This document shows positions 6,407-36,421 of a DNA stretch of 64,000 nt, piece by piece (position 1 is the stretch's first letter; every line of letters starts with the position of its first letter). A program made the translations under genes and the position numbers. Location: positions 44,060 through 108,059 of the forward strand of contig JAFSVF010000007.1 in NCBI GenBank assembly GCA_017450205.1, in the 5' to 3' direction. The notes under the pieces were generated by a model. It did no database searches, was not told where the DNA came from, and was given only the letters and a program-made list of their open reading frames with translations. This stretch comes from Bacilli bacterium (lineage in GTDB: Bacteria; Bacillota_I; Bacilli_A; RF39; UBA660).

Positions 6407-7192
6407 ATGTTATCTTCTGATGTTGCAAAGATATATCATGTAGAAACTAAAGTTTTGAATCAAACAATAAAAAGAAATATAAATCGTTTCCCAGAGACTT
6501 TTTGTTTTCAATTGACTAATGATGAATTAAAAAATCTATCTTCAAGGTCACAAATTGTGACCTTGAACAAAAGTAATAATTCAAGAGGATATAATATAAA
6601 GTACATGCCATATGTTTTGACTGAACAGGGTATCATGATGCTTTCTGGTTTGTTAAAAAGTGAAATTGCTGTGCAAGTAAATGTTCAAATCATTGAAGCT
6701 TTTTGTTTAATGAAAAAATATTTTAATGATGACGCTTTAGTATCAAATCACGAAATGAGAATACAAAAGTTAGAAAAAGTATTTAATAATTATTTAGTTG
6801 AAACCAAATGCAATAAGATATTTTTTGAAGGGCAAATATATGACTCATATTCTATATTACTAGAAATATTTAATAAAAGTAGTAATGAAATAATTATTAT
6901 AGATAATTATTTTTCAAAAGATTTATTAGATATATTAAGAAAACTGGAAAAGAAAATAATAATTGTTTCTAAAAATTTTGATAATGAATTAATTAAGAAA
7001 TATAATTCACAATATGAGAATATAGTATTTTTAAACAATAACTCTTTTCATGATAGATTTATAATAATAGATAGAAAAATTGTTTATTCGTGTGGAGCAT
7101 CATTTAAAGATTTAGGTAAAAAATGTTTTGCAATTAATGAGTTTAATGATAAAGAATATCTTAATAAAATTCTTTCTATCATAAATGTATAG
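6407..7192 (+). CDS. ORF6N (KilA-N-like) DNA-binding domain protein with unknown C-terminal domain
   Basis: The N-terminal roughly 110 aa match the ORF6N pattern (SDVAKIYHVETKVLNQ...RFPETFCFQLT...LTEQGIMMLS). Confidence 0.55.
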   Translation: MLSSDVAKIYHVETKVLNQTIKRNINRFPETFCFQLTNDELKNLSSRSQIVTLNKSNNSRGYNIKYMPYVLTEQGIMMLSGLLKSEIAVQVNVQIIEAFCLMKKYFNDDALVSNHEMRIQKLEKVFNNYLVETKCNKIFFEGQIYDSYSILLEIFNKSSNEIIIIDNYFSKDLLDILRKLEKKIIIVSKNFDNELIKKYNSQYENIVFLNNNSFHDRFIIIDRKIVYSCGASFKDLGKKCFAINEFNDKEYLNKILSIINV

Positions 7193-9708: not shown

Positions 9709-9737
9709 AAATAGACTTCATTTATATGAAGTCTTTT
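9709..9737. terminator. bidirectional terminator between pyk and the minus-strand kinases
   Basis: agacttcat / atgaagtct stem flanked by A- and T-runs. Confidence 0.55.
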
Positions 9738-9768: not shown

Positions 9769-11193
9769 TTACCTTGTTTTAGTAGGTATTGTTACAGTAA
9801 ATGTAGATCCACTTCCATAAATACTTTCTACTGTAATTGTACCATTTAATAAATCAACTAATTTTTTTGTGATTGATAAACCTAAACCAGTACCAACTAT
9901 ATTCGAATTTTTCTCATCAGTTTGTTTAGCAAAATTAGTAAATAGAGTAATTAATGTTTCATTCTTAATACCAATACCAGTATCAGATATTTTTATTCTT
10001 AAATTATAAGTTTCATAATCTACTTGATCAACAGAAAGGTAAGTAGAAATTTTACCTGTTTCAGTATATTTAATAGCATTATTTAATAAATTACGTACAA
10101 TCTTTCTAATATGTTTTTCATCACCAATTAATTCTTCAGGTATTGAATCATCAAATATAAATTCAAATTCTAGATTCTTATTTGAGTTTCTTGATTTTTC
10201 ACTATTAATAACATCTTCGATAGTACTAATAGGATTAAATGGAGCTTCGTATATTTTAATTTCTTTGTTCTCTAACTTATTTATATCTAGAATATTACCA
10301 ACTATTTCATTTAAATTCTTAGAAGCAGGAAGTAAATATTCAATATCATCTAATACATCTTCATCTTTTATTTCATTTTTCATTGAATAAATTTCTTTAG
10401 ATAAAGCTACTATATTATTAAGTGGTTCTGCTAATTCTTCATTCATTGAATTTAAGAAATCTGATTTAGCTCTTAGAGCTTTTTCAGTTTCTTCTTTATT
10501 TCTATTAAGTTCATTTATATATTTTAAATCTGGATTCTCCATTTTAAAGTAAACTATATAAACAAATAAGAATTCAATTATAGAAATAATATGTACATCA
10601 CTAGTAGTCATAGTAAGTACAAGTACAGTACTTCCTAAGAACATAATAGCAATTATTTGAAGTATTCTATTAGTTTCTACTCTTGATCTATATTTAATAG
10701 TTAAATATATCCAGAATATAATATTCATAAAATAGAAGAAAGATACATATATTGCACCTAAACCATTAAATTCACAATTCTTTAAATTAACAGGTAATAA
10801 CATAACTATAATTACACTACTAATTTCCATAATCATATGTTTCTTATATTTTAAATCAAAGAATATTTTATTTCTAAAGTTTTCTCCTAAATGAAGTAAA
10901 ACTGATATATATAAACTAACATAAACTATATATACTATCGTAGAAGCATTATAAATTCTCATAAGTATTTGAGGTATAAAATTAGTTATTTTAAAAGTAT
11001 CTACTAAAACCATAACTATAGTAATAATAACAGTACTAAAAAATGATAAACCAAGTAGAGTATTATATACTTTAATAGTTTCTGAAGTATTTTTATTTTT
11101 AATATTAAATGTAACATATAATCCTAAACTAAATAATATAATAGGAATATAAATAGCAATATAATGAGAAGGACTTAAATAGTAATGAATCAT
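9769..11193 (-). CDS. sensor histidine kinase paralog lacking the phospho-acceptor His (degenerate H-box)
   Basis: Multi-TM N-terminus. The H-box reads SMNEELAEPLN instead of SMSHEIRTPLN (His to Glu). The N, G1 (DTGIGI) and G2 (GTGLGLSI) ATP-binding motifs are intact. Confidence 0.8.
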   Translation of the reverse strand: MIHYYLSPSHYIAIYIPIILFSLGLYVTFNIKNKNTSETIKVYNTLLGLSFFSTVIITIVMVLVDTFKITNFIPQILMRIYNASTIVYIVYVSLYISVLLHLGENFRNKIFFDLKYKKHMIMEISSVIIVMLLPVNLKNCEFNGLGAIYVSFFYFMNIIFWIYLTIKYRSRVETNRILQIIAIMFLGSTVLVLTMTTSDVHIISIIEFLFVYIVYFKMENPDLKYINELNRNKEETEKALRAKSDFLNSMNEELAEPLNNIVALSKEIYSMKNEIKDEDVLDDIEYLLPASKNLNEIVGNILDINKLENKEIKIYEAPFNPISTIEDVINSEKSRNSNKNLEFEFIFDDSIPEELIGDEKHIRKIVRNLLNNAIKYTETGKISTYLSVDQVDYETYNLRIKISDTGIGIKNETLITLFTNFAKQTDEKNSNIVGTGLGLSITKKLVDLLNGTITVESIYGSGSTFTVTIPTKTR

Positions 11194-12596
11194 TGAGTAA
11201 TCCTCCTTCCTGGTTGTTGAGGTAATTCAACTACAACAGTAGTACCCTTACCATAACTACTAACTATATTAATAGTACCTTTAAGCATTTCTACTATTTT
11301 CTTAGTAACTGATAAGTTTAAAGATAACTTAGCATTATAATATTTATTATTCTTAACTTTATCACTATTGTATTCATATACAAAAGGAAGTATATCATTA
11401 TGAATTCCAAGACCTGTATCTTTAACCACAATCTTTAATCTTGGTTTTTCCATATTATCATCAATATCAATATCTAAATCTATATCTCCATTCGTAGTAG
11501 TTTGTAAAGAATTCTCAAGTAATTTAGTAATAATTTGTCTAATATGTCCTTCATCTCCATAAAGAATAGGAATATTGTCACTAACATTAATATTAAATTT
11601 AGTAGTATTAGATATTTTGTATACTATAGACTTTCTTATTTGAGTAATAATAGTTCTTATATCATAATTACTTTCAATTATATCAGTATGTTTAGTATCT
11701 AGTTTATTAATATCTATAATACTAGAAATAGTATCAAGTAATAGATTAGAATAATAAATTAATTCAGTAGCATCTTCTTCAAGTTCTTTAGGAATATTTT
11801 TACTATTAATTTTAATATCTTCAGCTAGTCCAATAATACCATTAAGTGGAGTTCTTATTTCATGTGACATATTCTTTAAGAAATCACTCTTAACGCTATT
11901 AGCTTCATTAACTTTATTTTTAGCACTTTCAAGTTCTTTAATCATTTTATAGTCTGTATTCTCCATAGTTAAATAAATTAAATACATGATTAAATATTCA
12001 ATTATTGTAACTATTGCAAGAGTTGGAAATAGTGCTTGTATAACACCACCTATAACAGCAAGTAATATAAATATATATAAAGGTAATACAATATTTCTTC
12101 TAAATTTACTTCTATTTCTATGTAAAGTCATAGTCCAAAAGAATACATTAACTACTGAATAAATACTTACTGTATTAATAGCAGCACCATACCCATATAA
12201 GTCATTAATATGTACTGGTAAGAAACAAGATACTATAGAAATAATTATACAAAACATAAAAGAATATCTTTTAGTCTTAATATAGTATTTATTATTTTCT
12301 TTTTCATAACATACAGATAAAATATATAATGTTAATTCATTAATCATTGCACATGTATAAACAATATAAAATTTAATTAGTATTTCTCCAAATAAAATAT
12401 TATAGTTGGGTTGATAATACAAATATAACATTGTACCAAATTCATTGATTAAGCCAGTAAAGTTATATATCAATAATTTAGTAAATATTTTAGTTTGCTC
12501 ATTAATTATTCTTTTTTTTGAAAAGAATAAAATAATTGTTACTAGTGAAAAGAATATTGTAATACCAATTGAATAGCAGTATATCACGTTCACCAC
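11190..12596 (-). CDS. sensor histidine kinase (multi-TM sensor, HisKA + HATPase_c)
   Basis: Canonical H-box KSDFLKNMSHEIRTPLN with DTGLGI and GKGTTV motifs. Overlaps the downstream kinase by 4 nt (ATGA). Confidence 0.85.
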   Translation of the reverse strand: MVNVIYCYSIGITIFFSLVTIILFFSKKRIINEQTKIFTKLLIYNFTGLINEFGTMLYLYYQPNYNILFGEILIKFYIVYTCAMINELTLYILSVCYEKENNKYYIKTKRYSFMFCIIISIVSCFLPVHINDLYGYGAAINTVSIYSVVNVFFWTMTLHRNRSKFRRNIVLPLYIFILLAVIGGVIQALFPTLAIVTIIEYLIMYLIYLTMENTDYKMIKELESAKNKVNEANSVKSDFLKNMSHEIRTPLNGIIGLAEDIKINSKNIPKELEEDATELIYYSNLLLDTISSIIDINKLDTKHTDIIESNYDIRTIITQIRKSIVYKISNTTKFNINVSDNIPILYGDEGHIRQIITKLLENSLQTTTNGDIDLDIDIDDNMEKPRLKIVVKDTGLGIHNDILPFVYEYNSDKVKNNKYYNAKLSLNLSVTKKIVEMLKGTINIVSSYGKGTTVVVELPQQPGRRITQ

Positions 12597-12953
12597 ATCC
12601 TTATTATAATTATATCAATATAATAAATTAAATAAAATATTACTGATATGTTTTTATTAAATTTTAATTATTAATATATTGATATAAGAAAAAATATAAA
12701 AAGAGTGGGGATTAACATTACGTCAGAACCTCCAGCAGAAAATAGAAAAACAGTAAGAAAAACACATGAAGAATTAGAAAAAATGAGAATTGAAAAAAAG
12801 TTAAAAAAACAATTGGTTAAAGATTATTAAGTTTATTAGTTAAGGTTATGAAGTAAAAGATAATTATACACTTGATGAGATAAAGGCTCTTGAACAAGAA
12901 ATTGGTGAAGGTGTAAAAATTTTAAACAAAGTAAAATAAGAAGGGTAACCTTC

Positions 12954-13685
12954 TTATTTTGTTTTTCTTAAAATAGGAGATGTATTTTCTAAATCAGGAT
13001 GACCAAAATCATAATGGAAGTCTTCTGGTGTAACCTCTCTTGATTTAAAGAATGAAAGATTATGTTCTTTAGTTACTGTAGTTGAACAATTCTCATTTAC
13101 ATAAGGATAGTATTCAAGTATTTCTCTATAATCATCTACATATGGACTTCTTTCAACATACCATTTACCATTCTTTTCTTCTACACTATATCCAAAGTAT
13201 TGTTCATGGCATAATCTTACTTTACCAGTATTATCAAAATCATATTGATCTTTATGCCAATCGTAATGAGTTTCAACTATTTCTTTTGTATCAATTACAT
13301 TACCCTTTTCATCTTTAATTTCAATTATTTCTCTAGTTTCATATTTATATTCAAACTCTAAATAATCATAATTATTAGCCATTTTATTATATAGGTAATC
13401 AAAGTTTTCTATACCATCAAATAAGTCTTTTTTGGAAATTTTCTCAAAAGCTAATTCATCTTTTTTATTAATATCTATATATTCAGGATTCCATTGATAT
13501 CCGTTGTGGTCATAAAGATGTTCATTATCTTCATATTTTTTAATGGTAAAACCATTAATTTCTTTAGTATATAAATGAACATGTCTATTAGGTAATTCGC
13601 ACTCACTTGTCTCTCCACAACCAGATAATGTTAATGAAGACATTATCATATAAGGTAATAATTTATATATCATTTTCTTTTTCAT
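12954..13685 (-). CDS. lipoprotein, unknown function
   Basis: Signal peptide with lipobox LTLSGC. Y/E/D-rich mature region. Confidence 0.6.
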   Translation of the reverse strand: MKKKMIYKLLPYMIMSSLTLSGCGETSECELPNRHVHLYTKEINGFTIKKYEDNEHLYDHNGYQWNPEYIDINKKDELAFEKISKKDLFDGIENFDYLYNKMANNYDYLEFEYKYETREIIEIKDEKGNVIDTKEIVETHYDWHKDQYDFDNTGKVRLCHEQYFGYSVEEKNGKWYVERSPYVDDYREILEYYPYVNENCSTTVTKEHNLSFFKSREVTPEDFHYDFGHPDLENTSPILRKTK

Positions 13686-13789: not shown

Positions 13790-15421
13790 ATGAATAATGT
13801 ACAATTCGCAGATAATAAACAAGGTTATGATAAGTATTATGCATTAATTAAGAACCTTGAAGGTATATTTGAAAAAGTATATCAAATGAATAATTATAAG
13901 TTAGATATTAGCTATTATGAAAATGAATTAAATAGAATTAAGAAAGAATTCAATTTAAAAGATGAAATGTTACAATCTTCTACAATTACATTTGAAAGCT
14001 TTAGAACAGATTATGAAATGTTTACATTAGGAGAACTAAATAAATCACTAGAAAAATTAACTAATGAATTTGAAAATAATGTTACACCAATTTATAACAT
14101 TTATTTACTTTTTAGATCAATTGATAAAAAGATAAATAATAAAAAAGATAATGATATTGAAGAAGTTTTATCTGAAACATTTAAATTGTTGGATAGTATA
14201 GATTTAGTTTCAACGCATAATAATATTGAAACTACTACTTTAATTGATAGAGCACACAAAACTATTTATAATGCTCTTCTATATGAAGAAGTATATAACA
14301 GACATGACATTCTAAATTATATTAAATCATTAAATTTATCTACAACAAGAGAAACACTTGGAGAAATTATTAGAAAAGAAACTAAAGATTTAGTTGAAAA
14401 AGGTTTTATTACATCAGAAGATATAGATTCAGAATTTATTAATCATATCAATGAAGGTTTAGGATACGATTATTTAAGTGAAGAGTATTTAAAATTACTT
14501 GCTAATACAAAATTTGCTAATAAAATGAATCGCATGAGTAAAAAACAAGAAGAAGAACTAATCCTACTTGAAAAGAAAATAAAAAGAAATAATGATGAAA
14601 TTACATCAGATGAAACATATTTAAAGAATCATAAGTTTGATTTAGTAAAAAATGTTATTCAAGAGGTTATAATGAGAAGTTCAGTAATTGGTGCATTATC
14701 AATACCAGTATTTGGAACTTACCTTGGATATTCTGTTGGAAAATCAACAAGTGAAAAAATTACTGAATATGCAACTATAACAAGAGAAATAGATTTAGAT
14801 ACACGTGAATATTTATCTGAACCTGTAAAAGAATATGATGACAAAGAAACAAGTTATGTTGCAACGCTTACAATATATGAACCATGGACTAAGAATCCAA
14901 ATGGTCCAGGGTATATTAGAAAAGCTGTAGCTTACGAATATATTACACCAGAAAATGCTTCAAGTGATTTTAGAATTACAAGAGAAAACATCGAAGGTAA
15001 TATTAGAGAAAAGTATAAATTTAGTGAATTATCAGATGTAATTCCTGAAAATGAAAATACAACTGATTCCATAATTCATATTACAGAAACATATCAAGAC
15101 AAATTAGATTCAAGAAAAAGTACTAGATATATCTTACCATTTAGTATAGTAGCAGGTATTTTAAGTAGTGCAATTGGAATTGCAGGTTTAATAGCACTTT
15201 TAACAAATGATAATAGAAGAAGAACATTAGAAAACTTAAGCGATGAAAGAAGAGAATACAAGGAAAATATTAAATCTACAAAGGATAATCTAGAGTATTA
15301 TAGTGAAAAAGCATATGAATTAGAAAAAGAAAAAGAGAATATAGAAAATCAATATAATATAAAACTAGATACTGAAGTATTAAAAAGAACTTTAAAACAT
15401 AATAAGCCTAACAAACGTTAG
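13790..15421 (+). CDS. hypothetical protein with C-terminal TM anchor and coiled coil
   Basis: 543 aa ORF with RBS aggggagag. One predicted TM (ILPFSIVAGILSSAIGIAGLIALL) is followed by a charged coiled-coil tail. Confidence 0.45.
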   Translation: MNNVQFADNKQGYDKYYALIKNLEGIFEKVYQMNNYKLDISYYENELNRIKKEFNLKDEMLQSSTITFESFRTDYEMFTLGELNKSLEKLTNEFENNVTPIYNIYLLFRSIDKKINNKKDNDIEEVLSETFKLLDSIDLVSTHNNIETTTLIDRAHKTIYNALLYEEVYNRHDILNYIKSLNLSTTRETLGEIIRKETKDLVEKGFITSEDIDSEFINHINEGLGYDYLSEEYLKLLANTKFANKMNRMSKKQEEELILLEKKIKRNNDEITSDETYLKNHKFDLVKNVIQEVIMRSSVIGALSIPVFGTYLGYSVGKSTSEKITEYATITREIDLDTREYLSEPVKEYDDKETSYVATLTIYEPWTKNPNGPGYIRKAVAYEYITPENASSDFRITRENIEGNIREKYKFSELSDVIPENENTTDSIIHITETYQDKLDSRKSTRYILPFSIVAGILSSAIGIAGLIALLTNDNRRRTLENLSDERREYKENIKSTKDNLEYYSEKAYELEKEKENIENQYNIKLDTEVLKRTLKHNKPNKR

Positions 15422-15473: not shown

Positions 15474-15550
15474 TGGTAGCGACGGGGAGATTCGAACTCT
15501 CGACCTGCCGGGTATGAACCGGATGCTCTAGCCAGCTGAGCTACATCGCC
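15474..15550 (-). tRNA. tRNA-Met (anticodon CAT)
   Basis: Reverse complement reads GGCGATGTAGCTCAGCTGGCTAGAGCATCCGGTTCATACCCGGCAGGTCGAGAGTTCGAATCTCCCCGTCGCTACCA. This gives a cloverleaf with a TTCATAC anticodon loop, a TTCGAAT T-loop and an encoded CCA. A few stem mismatches or wobbles are present. Confidence 0.8.
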
Positions 15551-16918: not shown

Positions 16919-18715
16919 ATGTCGGATATAAGAAATGCGTATTTAGGTTTATTATTAGCTTATAGTATTGTTGTATTTTTACTTATCATGATAAGAGATA
17001 CTAATAATAACAATTCATTTAAAAAATCTTTAAACTTGTTTAATACATGTTTATTTGTTTTTATAATTGGACTAGTTATTAATATATTAGGTAATAATTT
17101 TTATGATACAAGTAATTGGTACTCATTAAAAAATGTATTTTTAGCTAAGGGCTATTGCGCTTATTTATTTTCACTTATAGCATTCTTGTCTTCTTATTAT
17201 TGTGTTAATATTTTTAATTTTCAAATGAATGTATTACCTAAAAATAAAAAGAGTATTTTTTACTTCTTATTTTATATAATTTCAATTATTTTAATATTTG
17301 CATTACCTATAACAATTGAATTAAATGATGGTAGATTCTCATTTACTGGTCTATCTGTAACATATACTATGATAGCAGCTTTCTCATCATTTGTACCTGT
17401 AATTATTGAATTTATAATGAATATAAGAAAGATAGATTATTTTGAACTATTTTCACCATTCTTATTCTTTGCATTATGTATACTTTCAATATATTTTCAA
17501 TATGTAGTTAATTTATCACTTAATGAATTAGTAATAGCATTCTCTCTAGTTGTTACTTATTTTGGCGTTGAAAAAAGAGAAGAAAAACTTCAAGAAAATA
17601 TAAGTAATGCAATTATTTCTCTACAAAAAGGAGCTAGATTTAAATCAGACTTCTTATCTAATATGTCTCATGAAATAAAAACACCACTAAATTCAATTCT
17701 TTATACATCTAGAACATTAAATGAAAATAATAATATTAATTATGCTACTAAAAGAGAAATCAATGATATTATCTATTCCTCAGATATGCTTCAAGAAGTA
17801 ATAAGTAATATATTAATGGTTAATAAACTAGAAAATAATAAAGCTAATTTTAATAAGATTAATTATAACATTAAAACTGAAATTAAAACCTTACCATTTG
17901 TAGAAAAAATGAAAATAGATCCAAATGGAATAAACTTCTTTGTATATATAGATCCAAATGTACCAGATTTAATCTATGGTGAAAAAGAAGCAATTAGACT
18001 AATAATTAATAACGTATTAACATTTGCTCTTAACTATGTTAAGAGTGGTTCTTTAACTTTAAAAATATCTTGGGATGAAGAATCAGATAAAGGTTCTCAA
18101 TTAGTTCTAGAAGTAGAAAACGTTGAAGAAGGAATTGGAAATCTTTATAAGAATATAGATAACTTATCTGTATCTATATTTGACTGTGTTCAAAATTCAG
18201 ACTTTGGATTAGGTTTAGCATCAATTCTTACAAATAAATTAAATGGTAAAATTGATTTAGAAATCGAAGAAAACAGAAACAATATTATATTTAATATTCC
18301 TCATACAATCGGAGTTAAAATGCAAAACTTTGATAATGTAAGTTATGAAGGTAAGAAAGTACTAGTAGTAGATGATGTTAACTTAAATTTAAAAATTGCT
18401 AATAATGTATTCTCAAGTCTTAATATTGCATGTGATCTTGCAAACTCAGGTAGTGAATGTATTGAATTTGTAAAAAATAATATTTATGATTATATATTCT
18501 TAGATATAATGATGCCAAACTTAAATGGTGAAGAAACATTAAAAAAATTAAAAGAAATAGATGGTTTTAATGTTCCTGTTATAGCATTAACAGCTGATGA
18601 TGTACCAGACGCTGAAAAGAAGTATTTAGAAAAAGGTTTTTCAGGTTTTATAATAAAACCATTTACAAAATCAGATATAGTTAATGTTCTTGAAATTACT
18701 AATGGAGGTGATTAG
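16919..18715 (+). CDS. hybrid sensor histidine kinase (multi-TM, HisKA, HATPase_c, C-terminal REC)
   Basis: H-box KSDFLSNMSHEIKTPLN. Receiver segment VLVVDDVNLNLK...FLDIMMPNLNG...ALTAD. Confidence 0.85.
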   Translation: MSDIRNAYLGLLLAYSIVVFLLIMIRDTNNNNSFKKSLNLFNTCLFVFIIGLVINILGNNFYDTSNWYSLKNVFLAKGYCAYLFSLIAFLSSYYCVNIFNFQMNVLPKNKKSIFYFLFYIISIILIFALPITIELNDGRFSFTGLSVTYTMIAAFSSFVPVIIEFIMNIRKIDYFELFSPFLFFALCILSIYFQYVVNLSLNELVIAFSLVVTYFGVEKREEKLQENISNAIISLQKGARFKSDFLSNMSHEIKTPLNSILYTSRTLNENNNINYATKREINDIIYSSDMLQEVISNILMVNKLENNKANFNKINYNIKTEIKTLPFVEKMKIDPNGINFFVYIDPNVPDLIYGEKEAIRLIINNVLTFALNYVKSGSLTLKISWDEESDKGSQLVLEVENVEEGIGNLYKNIDNLSVSIFDCVQNSDFGLGLASILTNKLNGKIDLEIEENRNNIIFNIPHTIGVKMQNFDNVSYEGKKVLVVDDVNLNLKIANNVFSSLNIACDLANSGSECIEFVKNNIYDYIFLDIMMPNLNGEETLKKLKEIDGFNVPVIALTADDVPDAEKKYLEKGFSGFIIKPFTKSDIVNVLEITNGGD

Positions 18716-18718
18716 AGG

Positions 18719-20536
18719 ATGTTAATTACAGTTACTTTAGAATTTTTATCATTTCTATTTTTAATAATAATATTCTGTTCATTTATGATTAGAAACAAAA
18801 ATAAATCCGATGAATCAATATTCTTCTTTAGATTAACTCTTGTTACATTAATAACAATATTAGTTGAAATAGGAGCAACATTTACATTAGCTTATAGAGA
18901 TATTGTACCAACATTAAATATTATATTTAATAGACTATATGTCTCTTTAATTGCTCTTCTCATGCTTCAAATTAGTTATTTTATAATATTCCTATACAAT
19001 GATGAATTTAAAATAAATGAACAAAAGGGAATTAAAATAAGAAAACTATTAGATATTTCATGTTTAGCAGTAGTAATTATTGATTTATTTTTACCAATGA
19101 AATTTATCAGTAATGAATTTGGTGATAAATTTGGTGTTTATACTGATGGTCCAGGAGTATCCTTTGTAATAATTTATGGATTTATATTATTTATACTTGA
19201 TTTAATATCATGCTTAAAATTTAGAAATTATTTTACTAAACATAGAGTGACTTGTTTAATATTTTATTTTCTATTATTATTTGATGGAGTAATTGCAAGA
19301 CTATTACTACCTGGTATAACAATCATATGTTGTGAAGTAGCACTAATAGTTATTTTAATATATTTCCTTATTGAAAATTATGATACTAAAAGGGTAGAAC
19401 AATTAAAAGTAATAAGAGATCAAGCAAATAAATTTGACCAAGAAAGAACTAAATTCTTATCTAATATGTCCCATGAAATAAGAACTAGTTTAAATACTAT
19501 CGTAGTAACATCAAATGATTTACTTGAATCTAATGTAGATAATTCAATAAAAGAAGAACTTAAAGATTGTTTATATGCATCTGATACTTTACTAGAACTA
19601 GTGGGTAACATCTTAGATTTAAATAAAATATCTAGTGAATTCATATCATTAAACAATGTTCAATATAACTTAAAGAAAGAAGTAGAGTCTATAGTAGAAA
19701 TGACTTCTATTAGAATTGAAAATAAACCTATAAACTTTATTATGAATATAGATAATAGTATCCCAAATACATTATATGGTGATAAAGTTTATATGAAACA
19801 AATAATGAATAATTTACTTACTAATGCATTTAAATATACTAATGAAGGTGAAGTTAAATTTAACATTAGTTGTGAAAATGATTTAACTAATAAAAAATGT
19901 CATTTAATAATATCAGTACAAGATACAGGTATTGGTATTCAAGATACTTCTAAGTTGTTTAATAAATTTGATAGGTTAAATGTAGATAAAATAAGTACAG
20001 TTGAAGGAACTGGTTTAGGTTTAGTTATTACAAAGAAAATAATAGACTCAATGAAAGGTACTATTAATGTTGAATCAACTTACGGAAAAGGATCAAAATT
20101 CACTGTTGAATTAGATCAAGAAATTGTAGATAAACCAGTTAATGTAGTAAATAAATCTCAAGTCATTAATTATAACTTTGGTAATAGAAGAATACTACTT
20201 TTAGATGATGATAAATTAAATTTAAAGGTCGAAAAGAAAACATTATCTAAATTTAACTTTAAGATTGATACAGTTAATAATGTAGATGAAGCATTAGATT
20301 TAATTAAAAACAATGGTTATGACTTAATATTTACAGATGTCTATTTAGAAAATGGTTATGATGACCAAGTACTAAGATATGCTAAAAAGTTTAATATACC
20401 AGTTATATGTTTAACAGCAGATGCTATCGAAGGTGCTGAAGAAAAATATTTGAACTTGGGATATAGTTATTATATTTCAAAACCATATACAGTAAGAGAT
20501 ATCTATGATGTATTAGAAAAAGCATTTAGAAAATAG
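18719..20536 (+). CDS. hybrid sensor histidine kinase (multi-TM, HisKA, HATPase_c, C-terminal REC)
   Basis: H-box RTKFLSNMSHEIRTSLN with DTGIGI and GTGLGL motifs. Receiver segment ILLLDDDKLNLK...DLIFTDVYL...CLTAD. Confidence 0.85.
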   Translation: MLITVTLEFLSFLFLIIIFCSFMIRNKNKSDESIFFFRLTLVTLITILVEIGATFTLAYRDIVPTLNIIFNRLYVSLIALLMLQISYFIIFLYNDEFKINEQKGIKIRKLLDISCLAVVIIDLFLPMKFISNEFGDKFGVYTDGPGVSFVIIYGFILFILDLISCLKFRNYFTKHRVTCLIFYFLLLFDGVIARLLLPGITIICCEVALIVILIYFLIENYDTKRVEQLKVIRDQANKFDQERTKFLSNMSHEIRTSLNTIVVTSNDLLESNVDNSIKEELKDCLYASDTLLELVGNILDLNKISSEFISLNNVQYNLKKEVESIVEMTSIRIENKPINFIMNIDNSIPNTLYGDKVYMKQIMNNLLTNAFKYTNEGEVKFNISCENDLTNKKCHLIISVQDTGIGIQDTSKLFNKFDRLNVDKISTVEGTGLGLVITKKIIDSMKGTINVESTYGKGSKFTVELDQEIVDKPVNVVNKSQVINYNFGNRRILLLDDDKLNLKVEKKTLSKFNFKIDTVNNVDEALDLIKNNGYDLIFTDVYLENGYDDQVLRYAKKFNIPVICLTADAIEGAEEKYLNLGYSYYISKPYTVRDIYDVLEKAFRK

Positions 20537-28736: not shown

Positions 28737-28814
28737 TTTAGTTGATTTTTTTTTGCTTAATTTTTGACAAAAAAATAATTTGTGATAATATATATCCTAC
28801 GAAAGAGGATTATT

Positions 28815-29654
28815 ATGATCAAGTTAGATAAAGATTCAAATGGAATAATTAATATTAATAATTTAAATGTTAATATAGATATGTTTAATCCTGATAGATG
28901 TGGATTTAGGTTTGTTAAAGATGAAACAAGATATTTCTTTAAAAGATGTGGTAAAGAAGAAACCTTTAAGGAAATTTTTGCATCAAAAGTCGCAGATAAA
29001 ATGGGTATTGAACATGCAAGTTATGATATTGCTACATTTAGTGGTAATGAAGGCGTTGTATGTAACGCAGTTAATAAACAAGATGAAGAATTTATTTCTT
29101 TTGGTCAAATAAGAAGTAAACTTAAAATTAGTTATAAATATGATAATAGTATTGATACTATGAAAAAGAAAATATTACCTAAGATATGTTTATTTAATTC
29201 TAAAGAAGAATTAGATAAATTTATTAATGTATTTATCTTTGATATATTAATGGCTAATAGTGATAGAAACTGTGGAAATATAGGTTTTATTAAAAAGAAT
29301 AATAATTATAGAGTTTCTCCAATATTTGATAATGAAGAAATAGTAAATACACTTGCAATTGATGAACATACATATTCATTTACTGTTATAAATAGAAAAT
29401 TTGATGGTTTAAATTATGATACAATCATAGATTTCTTTAAAAATAAAAACTATGGTTATTTACTTAGTGATGCAATAGATAATTTCAATTTAGAAGATTT
29501 ATATGATTTAGTAGAAGAAATAAATCAAATATATCCTAATAAATTTGATAAAGACTATGAAATCCATGTTCTTAGTGAACTTAAAAGAAATTTACAAATA
29601 CTAAAAGAGTATAGATATGATTACTATAATGAAAGTAAAATGTTGAGAAGATAA
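28815..29654 (+). CDS. HipA-like (HipA_C kinase core) protein
   Basis: FINVFIFDILMANSDRNCGNIGFI...RVSPIFDNE matches the HipA C-terminal catalytic region pattern (F..VFN.L..N.D.H.KN......LSPAYD) with His replaced by Asn. RBS aagagga. Confidence 0.45.
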   Translation: MIKLDKDSNGIININNLNVNIDMFNPDRCGFRFVKDETRYFFKRCGKEETFKEIFASKVADKMGIEHASYDIATFSGNEGVVCNAVNKQDEEFISFGQIRSKLKISYKYDNSIDTMKKKILPKICLFNSKEELDKFINVFIFDILMANSDRNCGNIGFIKKNNNYRVSPIFDNEEIVNTLAIDEHTYSFTVINRKFDGLNYDTIIDFFKNKNYGYLLSDAIDNFNLEDLYDLVEEINQIYPNKFDKDYEIHVLSELKRNLQILKEYRYDYYNESKMLRR

Positions 29655-29656
29655 TT

Positions 29657-30286
29657 ATGGATGCGCATTTTGATTCAAATAATTTAAAAGAGTTTTTAAA
29701 AACAAATAAACCAATAGGTAAAGGTTACTTTGGTAGCTGTTACTTATATAATAATGACTACGTATTAAAAGCTATGGTTGAAGAATCTAAGAAGAAAAGT
29801 AATAGAGTTATTTATAAAGAAATTAAAGAAGATAAAAAACTAGAAGAATATTATTTTAAGACTTATGATACTAACTATACAACTAAAGAAGAAAGACTAA
29901 AAGAAACAATGGAAAGACTTTCCTATACAAAATATAGTTATGATTTAATTCAAGGATTAGCATACTATTATAATTATTGTTTTGGTACAGTATTAAAGTA
30001 TTATAAAGATTATTTAACTCTAGCGCATTCATCAATATATAATTTATCACAAGAAGAATTAGATGAGTTATATCATAACATTGAAGTATCTTATGAAGAT
30101 TTATTTAATAACTATATATATCCATTAGATATTAGAGATGAAAATATAATGTTTAATAATAATTTAGAAGTTAAACTAATAGATTTAGATGATGGATTAA
30201 CTTTTTATAATTATAATAAAAGTGAGAAAAAAGAAGAAATATGTAGAAATAAATTAAAAGAAATTAGAAAGGATCTTAAAAGATGA
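29657..30286 (+). CDS. minimal protein-kinase-like fold protein
   Basis: Gly-rich loop IGKGYFGSCY, beta3 Lys in VLK, catalytic-loop-like DIRDENIM and DFG-like LIDLDDG. 209 aa. Confidence 0.4.
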   Translation: MDAHFDSNNLKEFLKTNKPIGKGYFGSCYLYNNDYVLKAMVEESKKKSNRVIYKEIKEDKKLEEYYFKTYDTNYTTKEERLKETMERLSYTKYSYDLIQGLAYYYNYCFGTVLKYYKDYLTLAHSSIYNLSQEELDELYHNIEVSYEDLFNNYIYPLDIRDENIMFNNNLEVKLIDLDDGLTFYNYNKSEKKEEICRNKLKEIRKDLKR

Positions 30287-32778: not shown

Positions 32779-32797
32779 TTGATGTATTTCTATTTAA

Positions 32798-32829
32798 GGA
32801 AACGATATATATCGTTTCCTATTTTTTTT
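32798..32829 (+). terminator. rho-independent terminator after the ligase gene
   Basis: ggaaacgat-atat-atcgtttcc stem followed by T9. It sits inside the N-terminal extension of the 32779 ORF-track entry and argues against that start. Confidence 0.65.
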
Positions 32830-32880
32830 GCTTTTTATTTATGTTATAATTTCACTAGAACAAGAATAGAAGGTAGATAT

Positions 32881-35334
32881 ATGAACTTTGATTTGTTAAA
32901 TTTATGTACATTTATATATACTGTAACGATTAGTATATTATTTTTTAGAAAGAAAAGAGTAAAATCTACTGAATTAACTATTTTTTCTTTTTTACTTGTT
33001 ATTTCTGTTTGTTCACTATCATGTGAGCAAGGTTTGATTTTGCTTGTTGGTTTCAAAAATACTTTGTTTTATACTGCTTTATTAAAATTATTATTAATTT
33101 TTTATTACTTATGGACTGCGTTCTTTTTACTATATACAATATCTGTTTCATTTGAAAAACTAATTACTAAGAAGTTTTTGATTCCATATTTTTTATTTGG
33201 TTTAGCTATTATTGGTATTGTATTTACATTACCAATCCAATTAATTGATTATGGCAGTTCGGGATATTCTTCTGGTCTTGCTGTAGATTTTATAAGTTCT
33301 ATTTGTGGATTATATTGTTTTATTATGATTGTTTTATGTGTTATAAGCTTTAATAAATTTAAAACTAAAAAGTATCTACCTATTATTATTTTATTAATAT
33401 TACTTATTGGATCATTTGTTATTCAACGTTCGAATCCACAAATACTTTTAATGGCTTTTGTTCATGCATTTACGGGATTTGTTATGTACTTTACTGTTGA
33501 AAATCCAGATTTAGGAATAATTAAAGAACTTGAAAAAGCAAGAGATGAAGCTAATAGAGCTAATAAAGCTAAGAGCGAATTCTTAAGTTCCATGTCACAT
33601 GAAATAAGAACACCTCTAAATGCTATTATTGGTTTTTCTGAATTTATCTTAGATAGTGATTCTATCGAAGATGCTCATAATACTGCTAAAGATGTTGTAT
33701 GTGCGTCTCAAACATTACTAGAAACAGTTAATGGTATTCTAGATATATCTAAAGTTGAATCAGGTAAACTAGAAATTATTGAAGACAATTATAACTTAAA
33801 AGAATTACTTGATAACACAGTTAGAATAGCTAAAGCAAGAATGGGTGATAAACAACTTGATTTAAGAGTTCATTTCGCACCTGATCTTCCTGATACATTA
33901 TATGGTGATAAAAATAACTTAAATAAAGTTATTATTAACTTACTTACTAATGCAATTAAATATACTAAAGAAGGCTATATTGATTATTCAGTCCAATGTG
34001 CTAAAACACCTGAAATATGTAGACTTATTATTACAGTTAAAGATACTGGTATTGGAATTAAAAAAGAAAATATTGATAAGTTATTTACTAGATTCCAAAG
34101 ATTTGATGAAAAGAGTAACGGTACTATTGAAGGTACAGGATTAGGACTTGCTATTACTAAACAATTAGTTGAAATGATGGGTGGTAATATTGTAGTTTCT
34201 TCTATTTATGGAGAAGGTTCTAACTTTACAGTTGCACTAGATCAAAGAATAAGTCTTGCTCATGTTGCTCGTGAAGATATTCAAGCAGATGAATATAGAT
34301 TTGATCTACATGATAAAAAGATTCTTGTAGTAGATGATAATAATTTAAACTTAAAACTTGCAGAAAGAATATTCTTAAAATATAACTGTAAAGTTCAATG
34401 CGTAACAAGTGGATTCGAATGCTTAGATTACATTAATAAAGGATATACTTATGATTTAGTATTACTAGATGATGTAATGCCTAAGATGCTAGGTAGTGAA
34501 ACTCTAACAAGATTAAAAAGAATTGAAAACTTTAAAACACCAGTTATTGCATTAACTGCTAATGCAATCGCAGGTATGAAAGAAAAATATTTACTTCTTG
34601 GTTTTGATGATTATTTAGCTAAACCAATTGAAAAAGATCAATTAGAAATAATTCTTAAGAAATTCTTACTTGATAAGAAAGAAGCTAAGAGTCTAAGTGA
34701 TGATGTATTAACTTCAAGTAGACCAATGAGTGTTATTAGTGATGAAACTAAAAATGATATTTTATCAAGTGCTTCTTCTAAGAACACAGTAGTAGTTACT
34801 AAAGAACAAGCTGCACCTGAACCTGCAACTCAAGCACAAACAGCAAAACCTGAAGAAAAATCTCAAGTTGAAGGAATTAAATTCAATGATAAAGGTGCTA
34901 ATGCTGAAATAGTTATTCCTGAAAATGAACAATTTACTGATTACTCTGATAAGAGAATCTTAGTAGTAGATGATAATAAATTAAACTTAAAAGTTGCTCT
35001 TAAATTCTTATCGAGATATAAATTCCAAGAAGATGAAGCATACTCCGGTGAAGAATGTCTTGAAAAGATTAAGAATGGTGAAAAGTACGATATTATCTTT
35101 ATGGATATTATGATGCCTAACTTAAACGGTGTAGAAACATTCCATGAATTACAAAAGATTGAAGGATTTAATATCCCAGTAGTAATTGCCTTAACAGCAG
35201 ATGCTGTTGAAGGTGCAAAAGAAAAGTACTTAAAAGAAGGTTTCGCAGAATATATCTCTAAACCAATCGTAAGAGAAAGACTTGATAAAGTAATACATAA
35301 AGTATTAGATGAAAAAGAACAAAGTGAAGACTAG
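32881..35334 (+). CDS. hybrid sensor histidine kinase with two C-terminal receiver domains
   Basis: Multi-TM N-terminus and H-box KSEFLSSMSHEIRTPLN with DTGIGI and GTGLGLAI motifs. REC1 (ILVVDDNNLNLK...) and REC2 (ILVVDDNKLNLK...DIIFMDIMMPNLNG). Start at the ATG at 32881, which follows the terminator and a TATAAT box. Confidence 0.85.
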   Translation: MNFDLLNLCTFIYTVTISILFFRKKRVKSTELTIFSFLLVISVCSLSCEQGLILLVGFKNTLFYTALLKLLLIFYYLWTAFFLLYTISVSFEKLITKKFLIPYFLFGLAIIGIVFTLPIQLIDYGSSGYSSGLAVDFISSICGLYCFIMIVLCVISFNKFKTKKYLPIIILLILLIGSFVIQRSNPQILLMAFVHAFTGFVMYFTVENPDLGIIKELEKARDEANRANKAKSEFLSSMSHEIRTPLNAIIGFSEFILDSDSIEDAHNTAKDVVCASQTLLETVNGILDISKVESGKLEIIEDNYNLKELLDNTVRIAKARMGDKQLDLRVHFAPDLPDTLYGDKNNLNKVIINLLTNAIKYTKEGYIDYSVQCAKTPEICRLIITVKDTGIGIKKENIDKLFTRFQRFDEKSNGTIEGTGLGLAITKQLVEMMGGNIVVSSIYGEGSNFTVALDQRISLAHVAREDIQADEYRFDLHDKKILVVDDNNLNLKLAERIFLKYNCKVQCVTSGFECLDYINKGYTYDLVLLDDVMPKMLGSETLTRLKRIENFKTPVIALTANAIAGMKEKYLLLGFDDYLAKPIEKDQLEIILKKFLLDKKEAKSLSDDVLTSSRPMSVISDETKNDILSSASSKNTVVVTKEQAAPEPATQAQTAKPEEKSQVEGIKFNDKGANAEIVIPENEQFTDYSDKRILVVDDNKLNLKVALKFLSRYKFQEDEAYSGEECLEKIKNGEKYDIIFMDIMMPNLNGVETFHELQKIEGFNIPVVIALTADAVEGAKEKYLKEGFAEYISKPIVRERLDKVIHKVLDEKEQSED

Positions 35335-35585: not shown

Positions 35586-36002
35586 ATGGATACATACACA
35601 GAAGAAGACAATAGACAATATACAGATTATTCAGATAAAAGAATTCTTGTAGTAGATGATAATAAATTAAATTTAAAAGTTGCTCTTAAATTTATGTCTA
35701 AATATAATTTTAAAACTGATGAATGCTATAGTGGAGAAGAATGTTTAGATAAAATTCGTAGAGGAGAAAAGTATGATATTATTTTTATGGATATAATGAT
35801 GCCTACACTTAATGGTGTAGAAACATTCCATGAATTACAAAGAATTAAAGGATTTAATACTCCAGTAGTAATTGCTTTAACTGCAGATGCGGTTGAAGGA
35901 GCAAAAGAAAAATATTTAAGAGAAGGATTTGCTGAATATATTTCAAAACCAATAGTTAGAGATCATCTAGATGAAGTAGTTCATAAAGTATTAGATAAGT
36001 AA
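35586..36002 (+). CDS. stand-alone receiver (REC-only) response regulator
   Basis: 138 aa. Roughly 85% aa identity to REC2 of the upstream hybrid kinase, with a shared 28-nt identical DNA stretch. Confidence 0.85.
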   Translation: MDTYTEEDNRQYTDYSDKRILVVDDNKLNLKVALKFMSKYNFKTDECYSGEECLDKIRRGEKYDIIFMDIMMPTLNGVETFHELQRIKGFNTPVVIALTADAVEGAKEKYLREGFAEYISKPIVRDHLDEVVHKVLDK

Positions 36003-36004
36003 TT

Positions 36005-36421
36005 ATGAATATTGAAACTATAAAGAATACATTAGAAATAACTAATGGAGATAATATATTTGTATATTTACCAAGTACATTTTTAAATTTTAAAAGACTA
36101 TTAGAGTTTGAACTTAAAAAGTATGGAGTAAATAAAATATATTTCCATGAAGTAGATATGAATAGAGAAAAAGCTATGATTGATTATTTAGATATAGAAA
36201 ATATATACAAGTATCCAATGTTTGATTATAGTGATTTTAACAAGTATGCTAAACTTCAATATAAGTTTATTATATTTGATGTAGATAGAAATAAAATATA
36301 TTCTTATTTAGATAAAAGCAAGCTAGAAAATACTTTAAAGCATATTGAATCTACTAGAGAATACTTTAATAATTGTTTAGAAAACAATTCTTTAAAAATA
36401 TATATTCATAAAGAAGATTAA
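36005..36421 (+). CDS. hypothetical protein
   Basis: ORF abutting the REC gene. No recognisable motif. Confidence 0.4.
   Translation: MNIETIKNTLEITNGDNIFVYLPSTFLNFKRLLEFELKKYGVNKIYFHEVDMNREKAMIDYLDIENIYKYPMFDYSDFNKYAKLQYKFIIFDVDRNKIYSYLDKSKLENTLKHIESTREYFNNCLENNSLKIYIHKED

What the first reader, a model, noticed from the sequence alone, without database searches (positions are those of the whole stretch)
9769..12596. Tandem sensor kinases, one with the phospho-acceptor His replaced by Glu (pseudo-HK with intact ATP lid)
The two kinases overlap by 4 nt and share a multi-TM sensor architecture and a juxtamembrane MEN(P/T)D motif. The upstream one has a canonical H-box (SMSHEIRTPLN). The downstream one reads SMNEELAEPLN: His is replaced by Glu and the RTP is altered, yet the N/G1/G2 ATP-binding boxes are intact. 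It cannot autophosphorylate on His. It may act as a heterodimeric regulator, a phosphatase-only partner or a phospho-mimic of its sibling.
Basis: seen in the sequence. Interest (0 to 1): 0.65.

Follow-up and report, generated by a model that had tools for sequence, protein, structure and literature searches.

The report
Two half-broken sensor kinases, one enzyme
Two overlapping membrane sensor-kinase genes carry opposite, conserved defects: the first keeps the phosphorylatable histidine but lost part of its ATP site, and the second keeps the ATP site but lost the histidine, so they most likely work only as a mixed pair.

Summary
B (9769-11193, minus strand) reads SMNEELAEPLN, with Glu252 (GAA) where the phospho-acceptor His should be, and its N, G1, F and G2 ATP boxes are intact. 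All 25 relatives of B carry Asp or Glu there, in nine independent assemblies, so it is not a sequencing error.

Its H-box is perfect, but its G2 box (GTGLGL) is replaced by AKLSLNL and its F box is lost. This holds in all 17 relatives of A.

The two genes are translationally coupled. A's last codons carry B's ribosome-binding site. They form a two-gene operon and are adjacent in every genome fetched. Both are under purifying selection.

The closest solved relative, GacS, autophosphorylates in trans. That was shown by mixing a His-minus mutant with a G2-box mutant, which is the combination fixed here.

Best explanation (about 0.55): an obligate A:B heterodimer in which B's ATP domain phosphorylates A's His242.

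Precedents are FasB/FasC and RetS/GacS. I rate it a new variant of a known kind, moderately interesting.

The parts
11190..12587 (-). Gene A: 7-TM sensor kinase, 465 aa from the GTG at 12587 (the mechanical ORF start is 12596). It is the His donor: intact H-box, ATP domain lacking the G2 and F boxes.
11862..11864 (-). CAT codon of A His242, the proposed only phospho-acceptor of the pair. It sits in NMSHEIRTPLN (11841-11873), which is invariant in the A clade.
11313..11333 (-). A's G2-box remnant AKLSLNL, replacing GTGLGL. The three glycines have become K, S and N. It is conserved as YYNAK[LV]xLN in all 18 A-clade sequences. The F-box remnant LPFVYEYN lies at 11367-11390.
11403..11420 (-). A's retained G1 box DTGLGI. 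The N-box Asn is also retained, in KLLENSLQTT at 11496-11525. Some nucleotide binding by A therefore cannot be excluded.
11202..11207 (-). AGGAGG Shine-Dalgarno for B, lying inside A's last codons (PGRR, 11202-11213), 8 nt before B's ATG. The ATGA stop/start overlap is at 11190-11193. Together these indicate translational coupling, and the arrangement is conserved in orthologous loci.
9769..11193 (-). Gene B: 7-TM kinase-like protein, 474 aa. It is the ATP-domain donor: His replaced by Glu, complete N/G1/F/G2 boxes.
10438..10440 (-). GAA codon of B Glu252, in the column of the phospho-acceptor His, within SMNEELAEPLN (10417-10449). The column is D or E in all 26 B-clade sequences.
9877..10092 (-). 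B's ATP-binding boxes: N box NLLNNAIKYT (10063-10092), G1 DTGIGI (9967-9984), F LFTNFAK (9925-9945), G2 GTGLGL (9877-9894). All are invariant in the B clade. This domain is the most constrained part of B.
9713..9734 (.). Bidirectional intrinsic terminator hairpin between B and the convergent pyruvate kinase gene. It marks the end of the A-B operon.
12588..12932 (-). Intergenic leader and promoter region of the A-B operon. It lies downstream of the terminator of the preceding gene (12933-12960). The only promoter evidence is a weak consensus match at 12673-12700.

Best explanation
A and B are the two subunits of one obligate heteromeric sensor histidine kinase that has divided the catalytic cycle between paralogs. 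Both are 7-TM membrane sensors whose last TM helix runs straight into the dimerisation (DHp) helix. They are made in fixed proportion from a translationally coupled two-gene operon and, by inference, pair through their DHp helices. B supplies the only competent ATP-binding (CA) domain. A supplies the only phosphorylatable histidine (His242), the intact HExxT motif and the conserved receiver-docking face of helix 1. B's CA domain phosphorylates A's His242 in trans, giving one active site per dimer. The phosphoryl group then goes from A to a receiver domain encoded elsewhere; candidates in the window are the stand-alone receiver at 35586-36002 and the receivers of the neighbouring hybrid kinases.

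Shown: the reciprocal motif losses, their conservation, the synteny and coupling, purifying selection, and trans autophosphorylation in the closest solved relative.

Inferred: physical heterodimerisation, inability of A's CA domain to support catalysis, trans geometry in this pair, and the identity of the receiver.
For: 1. Reciprocal, clade-wide defects. All 26 B-clade sequences have D or E at the His column, with all ATP boxes invariant. All 18 A-clade sequences have an invariant H-box but lack G2 and F. Of the other retrieved family members, all 217 have the His and 220 of 225 have all three boxes scored (N, G1, G2).

2. B has no alternative conserved His in its DHp. Its invariant His residues are H101 and H201 (TM region) and H361 (start of CA).

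3. A is followed directly by B in all nine contexts fetched: the window, L001, L002, L026, L027, L028, L029, L031 and L032. The genes overlap or abut, and B's AGGAGG lies inside A's last codons. The operon is bounded by terminators.

4. Both genes are under purifying selection. Window vs L029 (dS about 0.7) gives omega of 0.08 for A's DHp, 0.14 for A's CA, 0.14 for B's DHp and 0.13 for B's CA. Against the most distant ortholog, B's CA is by far its slowest part: dN 0.20, against 0.39 for DHp and 0.66 for TM. The helix-1 residues after the H site, which form the receiver-docking region, are conserved in A but variable in B.

5. The best solved relative of both proteins is GacS, PDB 7z8n. GacS and BarA autophosphorylate in trans. 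This was demonstrated by complementation between GacS H293A and the G2-box mutant G472A/G474A, which cannot bind ATP (PMC8498467). A/B is the natural counterpart of that mutant pair.

6. A's model matches the RetS kinase region best (TM 0.79). RetS keeps its His, lacks the G boxes, cannot autophosphorylate and forms DHp heterodimers with GacS.

7. The same theme appears next door. Hybrid kinase C (16919-18715) has a conserved dead CA domain and is always followed by the complete kinase D. That pair is duplicated as a unit in L030.

8. FasB/FasC of group A Streptococcus is an experimental precedent for a tandem heterodimeric pair with proposed trans phosphorylation (PMC12675982).
Against: 1. 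There is no direct evidence of an A-B contact.

2. Whether this pair works in cis or in trans is unknown. The relatives HK853 and ArcB work in cis (my own knowledge). The DHp loops of A and B are 2-3 residues longer than that of GacS.

3. A keeps the N-box Asn and the G1 DxGxG motif, and its CA domain is under purifying selection. It may still bind nucleotide or have another role.

4. No response regulator or Hpt is encoded beside the pair.

5. Other His-less members of this family with an intact CA domain (H to K, R or Q) sit beside paralogs that are also His-less. No complementary partner (His kept, CA degenerate) was seen next to them, although complete hybrid kinases lie nearby. His loss in this family therefore does not always imply a complementary partner next door.
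Confidence: 0.55

Rival explanations
1. B is a non-catalytic regulatory pseudo-kinase of the DivL or RetS type. It uses its sensor and its nucleotide-bound CA/DHp surface to modulate A, or the neighbouring hybrid kinases C, D and E, by heteromerisation. It does not phosphorylate anyone. A itself acts as a RetS-like phosphatase or phosphate sink rather than as a kinase.
For: A's cytoplasmic model matches RetS best, and A shares RetS's combination of retained His, HExxT motif and degenerate G boxes. DivL also appears among B's solved relatives. Several related kinases lie within 25 kb. His-less relatives carrying K, R or Q exist that have no complementary partner adjacent.
Against: B's catalytic boxes (N, G1, F, G2) are all invariant, and its CA domain is the slowest-evolving part of the protein. 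That is more than a scaffold would need. The two defects are exactly complementary, and the genes are translationally coupled in every genome.
Confidence: 0.2
2. A is still an autonomous homodimeric autokinase despite its altered ATP lid. B only tunes it, for example by forming inactive heterodimers that lower output, acting as a dominant-negative brake under control of B's own sensor.
For: A keeps the N-box Asn and the G1 DxGxG motif. Its HATPase_c score (58.6 bits) is above the Pfam cut-off. Its CA domain has omega of about 0.14.
Against: All three G2 glycines are replaced (K, S, N) and the F box is gone in all 18 A-clade sequences. Changing two of those glycines to Ala in GacS abolishes ATP binding (PMC8498467). 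RetS, which lacks the G boxes, cannot autophosphorylate. A pure brake would not need an invariant catalytic site in B.
Confidence: 0.13
3. B autophosphorylates on a non-canonical residue: the Asp/Glu itself as an acyl phosphate, or another His.
For: B has an intact, conserved catalytic domain but no canonical acceptor.
Against: D and E interchange freely (16 vs 10), which is unlikely for a specific chemical acceptor. There is no conserved His in B's DHp. I know of no precedent in this kinase family.
Confidence: 0.05
4. The finding is an artefact or decay: a sequencing error at the His codon, or two duplicated kinases turning into pseudogenes.
For: None was found beyond the degenerate motifs themselves.
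Against: The same D/E codon (GAA or GAT) is present in nine independent assemblies. Both ORFs are full length in all loci, with omega of 0.1-0.2 in every domain. The replacement motifs are themselves conserved.
Confidence: 0.02

Closest known systems
GacS H293A + GacS G472A/G474A complementation pair (Pseudomonas aeruginosa; PMC8498467). The same classic experiment was done on EnvZ (my own knowledge).
   Same: One partner lacks the acceptor His and the other lacks a functional G2 box. Activity appears only in the mixed dimer, by trans phosphorylation. GacS (7z8n) is the best solved sequence relative of both A and B.
   Different: Those are laboratory point mutants of one protein. Here the two defects are fixed in two diverged paralogs (32% identical), each with its own 7-TM sensor, and are conserved across a lineage. 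Activity has not been measured.
FasB/FasC of group A Streptococcus (PMC12675982, 2025)
   Same: Two adjacent sensor-kinase-like genes in one operon. The proteins interact with each other but not with themselves in a two-hybrid assay. One partner's kinase domain is dispensable. The other partner's kinase domain is proposed to phosphorylate the first partner's His in trans.
   Different: The fas locus also encodes its regulator FasA, whereas no regulator lies next to A/B. In Fas the kinase-providing partner still has candidate His residues, so the losses are not cleanly reciprocal at motif level. Relatedness of A/B to FasB/FasC was not tested here.
RetS-GacS multikinase network (P. aeruginosa)
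   Same: RetS keeps its His and the HExxT motif, lacks the G boxes, cannot autophosphorylate, and forms a DHp-DHp heterodimer with a BarA-type kinase. A's model matches RetS best.
   Different: RetS inhibits a fully competent GacS, and both proteins also form homodimers. The genes are not adjacent (my own knowledge). Here the partner (B) has no His of its own, so the heteromer would be productive rather than inhibitory.
DivL (Caulobacter), a pseudo-histidine kinase with His replaced by Tyr
   Same: A histidine-kinase fold whose acceptor His is replaced while a CA domain is retained. DivL appears among B's solved relatives (4q20; literature).
   Different: DivL works as a sensor of a phosphorylated response regulator and controls another kinase. 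It has no adjacent paralog with a complementary defect (my own knowledge). The substitution is Tyr, not Asp/Glu.

Membership tests
Class I (HisKA + HATPase_c) sensor histidine kinase, BarA/GacS/TorS-like transmitter | DHp domain with the phospho-acceptor His in the H-box | tested here: not met
   Met by A: NMSHEIRTPLN, HisKA 37.3 bits against a cut-off of 26.9. Not met by B: Glu252 at the His column, HisKA 19.7 bits, below cut-off. B alone is therefore not a functional member.
Class I (HisKA + HATPase_c) sensor histidine kinase, BarA/GacS/TorS-like transmitter | CA domain with N, G1, F and G2 nucleotide-binding boxes | tested here: not met
   Met by B: all four boxes are invariant and HATPase_c scores 91.6 bits. 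Not met by A: G2 GTGLGL has become AKLSLNL and the F box is lost in 18 of 18 sequences, while N and G1 are kept. A alone is therefore not a complete member.
Class I (HisKA + HATPase_c) sensor histidine kinase, BarA/GacS/TorS-like transmitter | Overall homology and fold of the transmitter module | tested here: met
   The best NCBIfam partial matches are BarA, TorS, LuxQ and ArcB. The best PDB relatives are GacS 7z8n, HK853 and RetS. The models have pLDDT of 82.7 and 77.5, with a DHp hairpin plus an alpha/beta CA domain.
Heteromeric tandem sensor-kinase pair (FasB/FasC type) | Two kinase-like paralogs encoded side by side and co-expressed | tested here: met
   4-nt overlap; B's SD lies inside A's coding sequence; the operon is bounded by terminators; the genes are adjacent in all 9 contexts.
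Heteromeric tandem sensor-kinase pair (FasB/FasC type) | Physical heteromerisation, with one subunit's CA domain phosphorylating the other's His | not testable with these tools
Support is indirect only: complementary motifs, and trans autophosphorylation in GacS/BarA.
Heteromeric tandem sensor-kinase pair (FasB/FasC type) | Dedicated response regulator in the same locus | tested here: not met
   No receiver-domain gene is adjacent in any locus. The nearest receivers in the window are in C and D (16919-20536), in E (32779-35334) and in the stand-alone receiver at 35586-36002.
RetS-type kinase-dead sensor (for A) | His and HExxT retained, G boxes degenerate, no autokinase activity | tested here: inconclusive
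   The sequence features are partly met: His and HEIRT are kept, G2 and F are lost, but G1 is kept, unlike in RetS. The best fold match is RetS 6dk7. Activity was not testable.
DivL-type pseudo-histidine kinase (for B) | Acceptor His substituted, CA domain retained but catalysis not needed | tested here: inconclusive
   The His substitution is met. However, B's catalytic boxes are invariant and its CA domain is the most constrained region, which argues that catalysis is needed.

The most novel reading that the evidence does not exclude
A naturally hard-wired asymmetric histidine kinase. It would be an obligate heterodimer with a single active site (B's ATP domain acting on A's His242). The opposite, doubly dead site would have been turned into a permanent latch: the invariant Lys that replaces the first G2 glycine of A pairs with the invariant Asp/Glu that replaces the His of B. 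Two different 7-TM sensors would then feed one catalytic centre, giving two-input logic. The complementary decay would make the paralogs mutually dependent, so the pair would be a clean bacterial case of subfunctionalisation within a homodimer. The neighbouring C/D pairs would represent an earlier stage of the same process.
Probability: 0.3. Interest if true: 0.75.

Novelty: new variant of a known kind. Interest (0 to 1): 0.6.

Why it matters
Histidine kinases are usually treated as homodimers whose paralogs are insulated from each other. Heteromeric kinases are known only from a few cases studied by experiment: RetS/GacS, and FasB/FasC in 2025.

This pair would be readable from sequence alone. 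The two halves of the catalytic cycle are assigned to different genes, and that assignment has been kept across a lineage.

If confirmed, it would provide three things. First, a natural system with exactly one active site per dimer, useful for studying trans phosphorylation and the asymmetry of kinase dimers. Second, an example of two membrane sensors converging on one phosphorylation event. Third, a simple rule for finding more heteromeric kinases in genomes: a tandem pair with the H-box lost in one gene and a G box lost in the other.

It also warns annotators. Both proteins are currently labelled 'sensor histidine kinase', but neither is likely to be one on its own.

Tried and rejected
1. 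Sequencing error or pseudogene. Rejected: the same D/E codon occurs in 9 assemblies, the ORFs are intact, and omega is 0.1-0.2.

2. Heterodimer structure prediction. I fused the cytoplasmic parts of A and B with a Gly-Ser linker and built a paired 8-row alignment. Cis versus trans geometry and the A-B interface therefore remain untested.

3. Origin of the pair. A neighbour-joining tree with 200 bootstraps shows that A, B, C and D are each monophyletic. It cannot decide between A+B as sisters (48%) and (A,C),(B,D) (43.5% and 19.5%). A first attempt timed out.

4. Search for more distant B-like proteins. An exhaustive profile search of 1.84 billion representatives returned the whole B clade as a single 50%-identity cluster (790 bits), with the next hit at 340 bits.

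5. Independent complementary pairs elsewhere. The three other His-less members with an intact CA domain (H to K, R or Q) looked promising. Their neighbours in L033 and L035 turned out to be His-less too, so they do not replicate the A/B logic. Two further contigs were too short to be informative.

6. A response regulator or Hpt next to the pair. None was found. A home-made Hpt profile found nothing in the window. The 138-aa ORF after the stand-alone receiver shows no similarity to an Hpt-containing relative.

7. Phosphatase-only role for B. Judged unlikely because the Thr of HExxT is lost.

8. Named sensor domain for the 7-TM region. Neither Pfam nor NCBIfam matched it.
Full report
WHAT IS THERE

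The flagged interval holds two minus-strand ORFs, A (11190-12596 mechanically) and B (9769-11193). They overlap by the four bases ATGA. They are paralogs, 32% identical over 458 residues with E 7e-49. Orthologs of A start at MIYCYS..., so A most likely starts at the GTG at 12587 and is 465 aa long.

Hydropathy and AlphaFold models (pLDDT 82.7 for A, 77.5 for B) give both proteins seven transmembrane helices with very short outer loops. The seventh helix runs without a break into helix 1 of the dimerisation/phosphotransfer (DHp) domain, and an alpha/beta ATP-binding (CA) domain follows.

A reads NMSHEIRTPLN, with His242 at 11862-11864. B reads SMNEELAEPLN, with GAA (Glu252, 10438-10440) in the His column. 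B's boxes are N box NLLNNAIKYT, G1 DTGIGI, F LFTNFAK and G2 GTGLGL, and all are invariant in 18 aligned orthologs. In Pfam, B's HisKA match falls below the family cut-off (19.7 against 26.9 bits) while its HATPase_c match is strong (91.6 bits).

The substitution is not an error. All 25 B-clade proteins in the database, 47-97% identical to the window copy, carry Asp (16, counting the window with the Glu group) or Glu (10) at that column. All 217 other family members retrieved carry His. The codon is GAA or GAT in nine independent assemblies.

The upstream kinase A is not canonical. The G2 box GTGLGL is replaced by AKLSLNL, so the three glycines have become Lys, Ser and Asn. The F box (LFxKF) is replaced by LPFVYEYN.

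This holds in all 17 A-clade proteins plus the window copy. The replacement is itself conserved (YYNAK[LV]xLN). Of the other 225 family members, 220 have N, G1 and G2. A keeps the G1 DxGxG motif and, with two exceptions, the N-box Asn.

The two genes therefore carry opposite defects. A has the histidine but an incomplete ATP site. B has a complete ATP site but no histidine. B also has no alternative conserved His in its DHp. It has lost the Thr of the HExxT motif as well, which I know from the literature to be needed for transmitter phosphatase activity.

THE PAIR IS A UNIT

In all nine genomic contexts fetched, A is followed directly by B, with the genes overlapping or abutting. The contexts are the window, L001, L002, L026, L027, L028, L029, L031 and L032. 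The orthologs in them are down to 48% identical, and they sit in the same rpoC-ldh-cobW-add-pyk neighbourhood.

A's last codons (Pro-Gly-Arg-Arg) spell the AGGAGG ribosome-binding site of B, 8 nt before its ATG. This is conserved in the orthologous loci. Terminator hairpins bracket the two genes.

Both genes are under purifying selection in all three regions. Window vs L029 (dS about 0.7) gives omega values of 0.19, 0.08 and 0.14 for A's TM, DHp and CA regions, and 0.19, 0.14 and 0.13 for B's. Against the most distant ortholog, B's CA domain is much the slowest part of the protein: dN is 0.20, against 0.39 for DHp and 0.66 for TM.

A consensus comparison shows that the helix-1 residues after the H site, which form the receiver-docking region, are conserved in A as in ordinary family members but are variable in B. 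Selection thus preserves in each protein exactly the half that the other lacks.

HOW IT MOST LIKELY WORKS

The best solved relative of both proteins is the GacS kinase of Pseudomonas aeruginosa, PDB 7z8n (identity of the entry confirmed). GacS and its E. coli homolog BarA autophosphorylate in trans. For GacS this was demonstrated by mixing H293A (no acceptor) with G472A/G474A (a G2-box mutant that cannot bind ATP). Neither works alone, but the mixture does (PMC8498467). A and B are the natural equivalent of that mutant pair.

I therefore propose an obligate A:B heterodimer with a single active site, in which B's CA domain phosphorylates A's His242. A then passes the phosphoryl group to a receiver domain.

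Three further points fit this reading.
- Solved kinase dimers are known to be asymmetric (PMC3904827, listed).
- A's model resembles RetS most closely (TM 0.79). RetS keeps its His, lacks the G boxes, cannot autophosphorylate, and forms a DHp-DHp heterodimer with GacS.
- FasB/FasC of group A Streptococcus shows that tandem sensor-kinase-like proteins can act as a heteromer, with one kinase domain proposed to phosphorylate the other protein's His (PMC12675982).

None of the following is shown here: the A-B contact, the failure of A's CA domain, the trans geometry, or the receiver.

SUPPORT FROM THE NEIGHBOURHOOD

About 4 kb away lies a second tandem pair on the plus strand. C (16919-18715) has an intact H-box and receiver. 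Its CA domain has lost the Mg-binding Asn (to Phe/Tyr in all 22 orthologs) and the G1 box. D (18719-20536) is complete. In L030 this pair occurs twice in a row, so it was duplicated as a unit. Dependence of a CA-dead upstream kinase on the kinase encoded just downstream thus seems to be a habit of this lineage. A/B looks like the extreme case, in which the downstream partner has also given up its His and both have lost the receiver.

A neighbour-joining tree cannot resolve whether A/B arose from a C/D-like pair.

CAVEATS

1. Some relatives work in cis (HK853 and ArcB; my own knowledge). The DHp loops of A and B are 2-3 residues longer than that of GacS.
2. A's CA domain keeps N and G1 and is conserved, so nucleotide binding or another role is possible.
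3. No response regulator or Hpt lies beside the pair. The window holds a fifth kinase with two receivers (32779-35334) and a stand-alone receiver (35586-36002), which are only candidates.
4. An exhaustive profile search shows that the B clade is a single narrow cluster.
5. Three other family representatives have lost the His while keeping the CA domain (to K, R or Q). In L033 and L035 their neighbours are also His-less, not complementary. Pseudo-kinases in this family therefore do not always come with a complementary partner next door. This keeps a purely regulatory role for B alive.

COMPARISON AND NOVELTY

Functionally the pair resembles the GacS or EnvZ complementation experiment, FasB/FasC, and the productive mirror image of RetS/GacS. 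Taken one at a time, neither protein passes the membership test for a functional class I histidine kinase: B fails the His criterion and A fails the G2/F criterion. Together they pass.

I found no description of a naturally reciprocal H-box/G2-box pair in the literature searches, although the library searched is incomplete.

I rate it a new variant of a known kind. The host is an uncultured low-GC (about 25%) Bacilli lineage known from metagenome-assembled genomes.

VERDICT

- Observation: confirmed and extended.
- Best explanation: obligate heterodimer with division of labour, confidence about 0.55.
- Interest: 0.6.

Noticed in passing
window 16919-18715 (+) and 18719-20536 (+); L030 2301-9605: A second tandem kinase pair. 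Hybrid kinase C keeps its His and receiver but has a conserved dead ATP domain: the N-box Asn is Phe/Tyr and G1 is lost in all 22 orthologs, and there is no Pfam HATPase_c hit. It is followed at a 3-nt gap by the complete hybrid kinase D. In L030 the pair is duplicated as a unit.
   Followed up: partly
window 32779-35334 (+), 35586-36002 (+), 36005-36421 (+): A fifth family member with two receiver domains, followed by a stand-alone receiver that scores very high against the family's own receiver profile. After that comes a 138-aa ORF with no family match and no similarity to an Hpt-containing relative. The first two are possible downstream partners of the orphan A/B pair.
   Followed up: partly
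L033 842-4309; L035 2979-11479: Other lineages hold clusters of this 7-TM kinase family in which several members have lost the His to Lys, Arg or Gln (P0409, P0462, P0483). One is a 337-aa truncated copy without any ATP domain. His loss has therefore occurred repeatedly in this family.
   Followed up: partly
window 11202-11213 (-): The conserved C-terminal tail of A (Pro-Gly-Arg-Arg) appears to be constrained by the nucleotide sequence, since it encodes the AGGAGG ribosome-binding site of B. More distant orthologs have a different tail (K-D/E-V-K) that still carries AAGGAGG or AAAGGA.
   Followed up: yes
window 12587-12596 (-): The mechanical ORF start of A (GTG at 12596) is probably three codons too far upstream. 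The orthologs and their gene calls start at the GTG/ATG equivalent to 12587.
   Followed up: yes
window 6407-7192 (+): An ORF6N/Rha-like (phage regulatory type) gene sits between cobW and the adenosine deaminase gene. A related gene is present in L031, but none is present at this position in L027 and L029, so it is a variable insertion in an otherwise syntenic housekeeping block.
   Followed up: no
window 28782-29654 (+) and 29657-30286 (+): A HipA-like kinase domain gene is followed by a short ORF with a weak protein-kinase match. This may be a toxin-type kinase module.
   Followed up: no
window 12954-13685 (-) and 13790-15421 (+): Two ORFs with no Pfam match: a 243-aa protein with a lipoprotein-like N-terminus, and a 543-aa coiled-coil-rich protein with a C-terminal TM segment. 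They flank the A/B operon and are also present next to it in L031 and L032.
   Followed up: no
window 15477-15550 (-): A single tRNA gene. It is the only Rfam match at gathering threshold in the 64 kb window.
   Followed up: no
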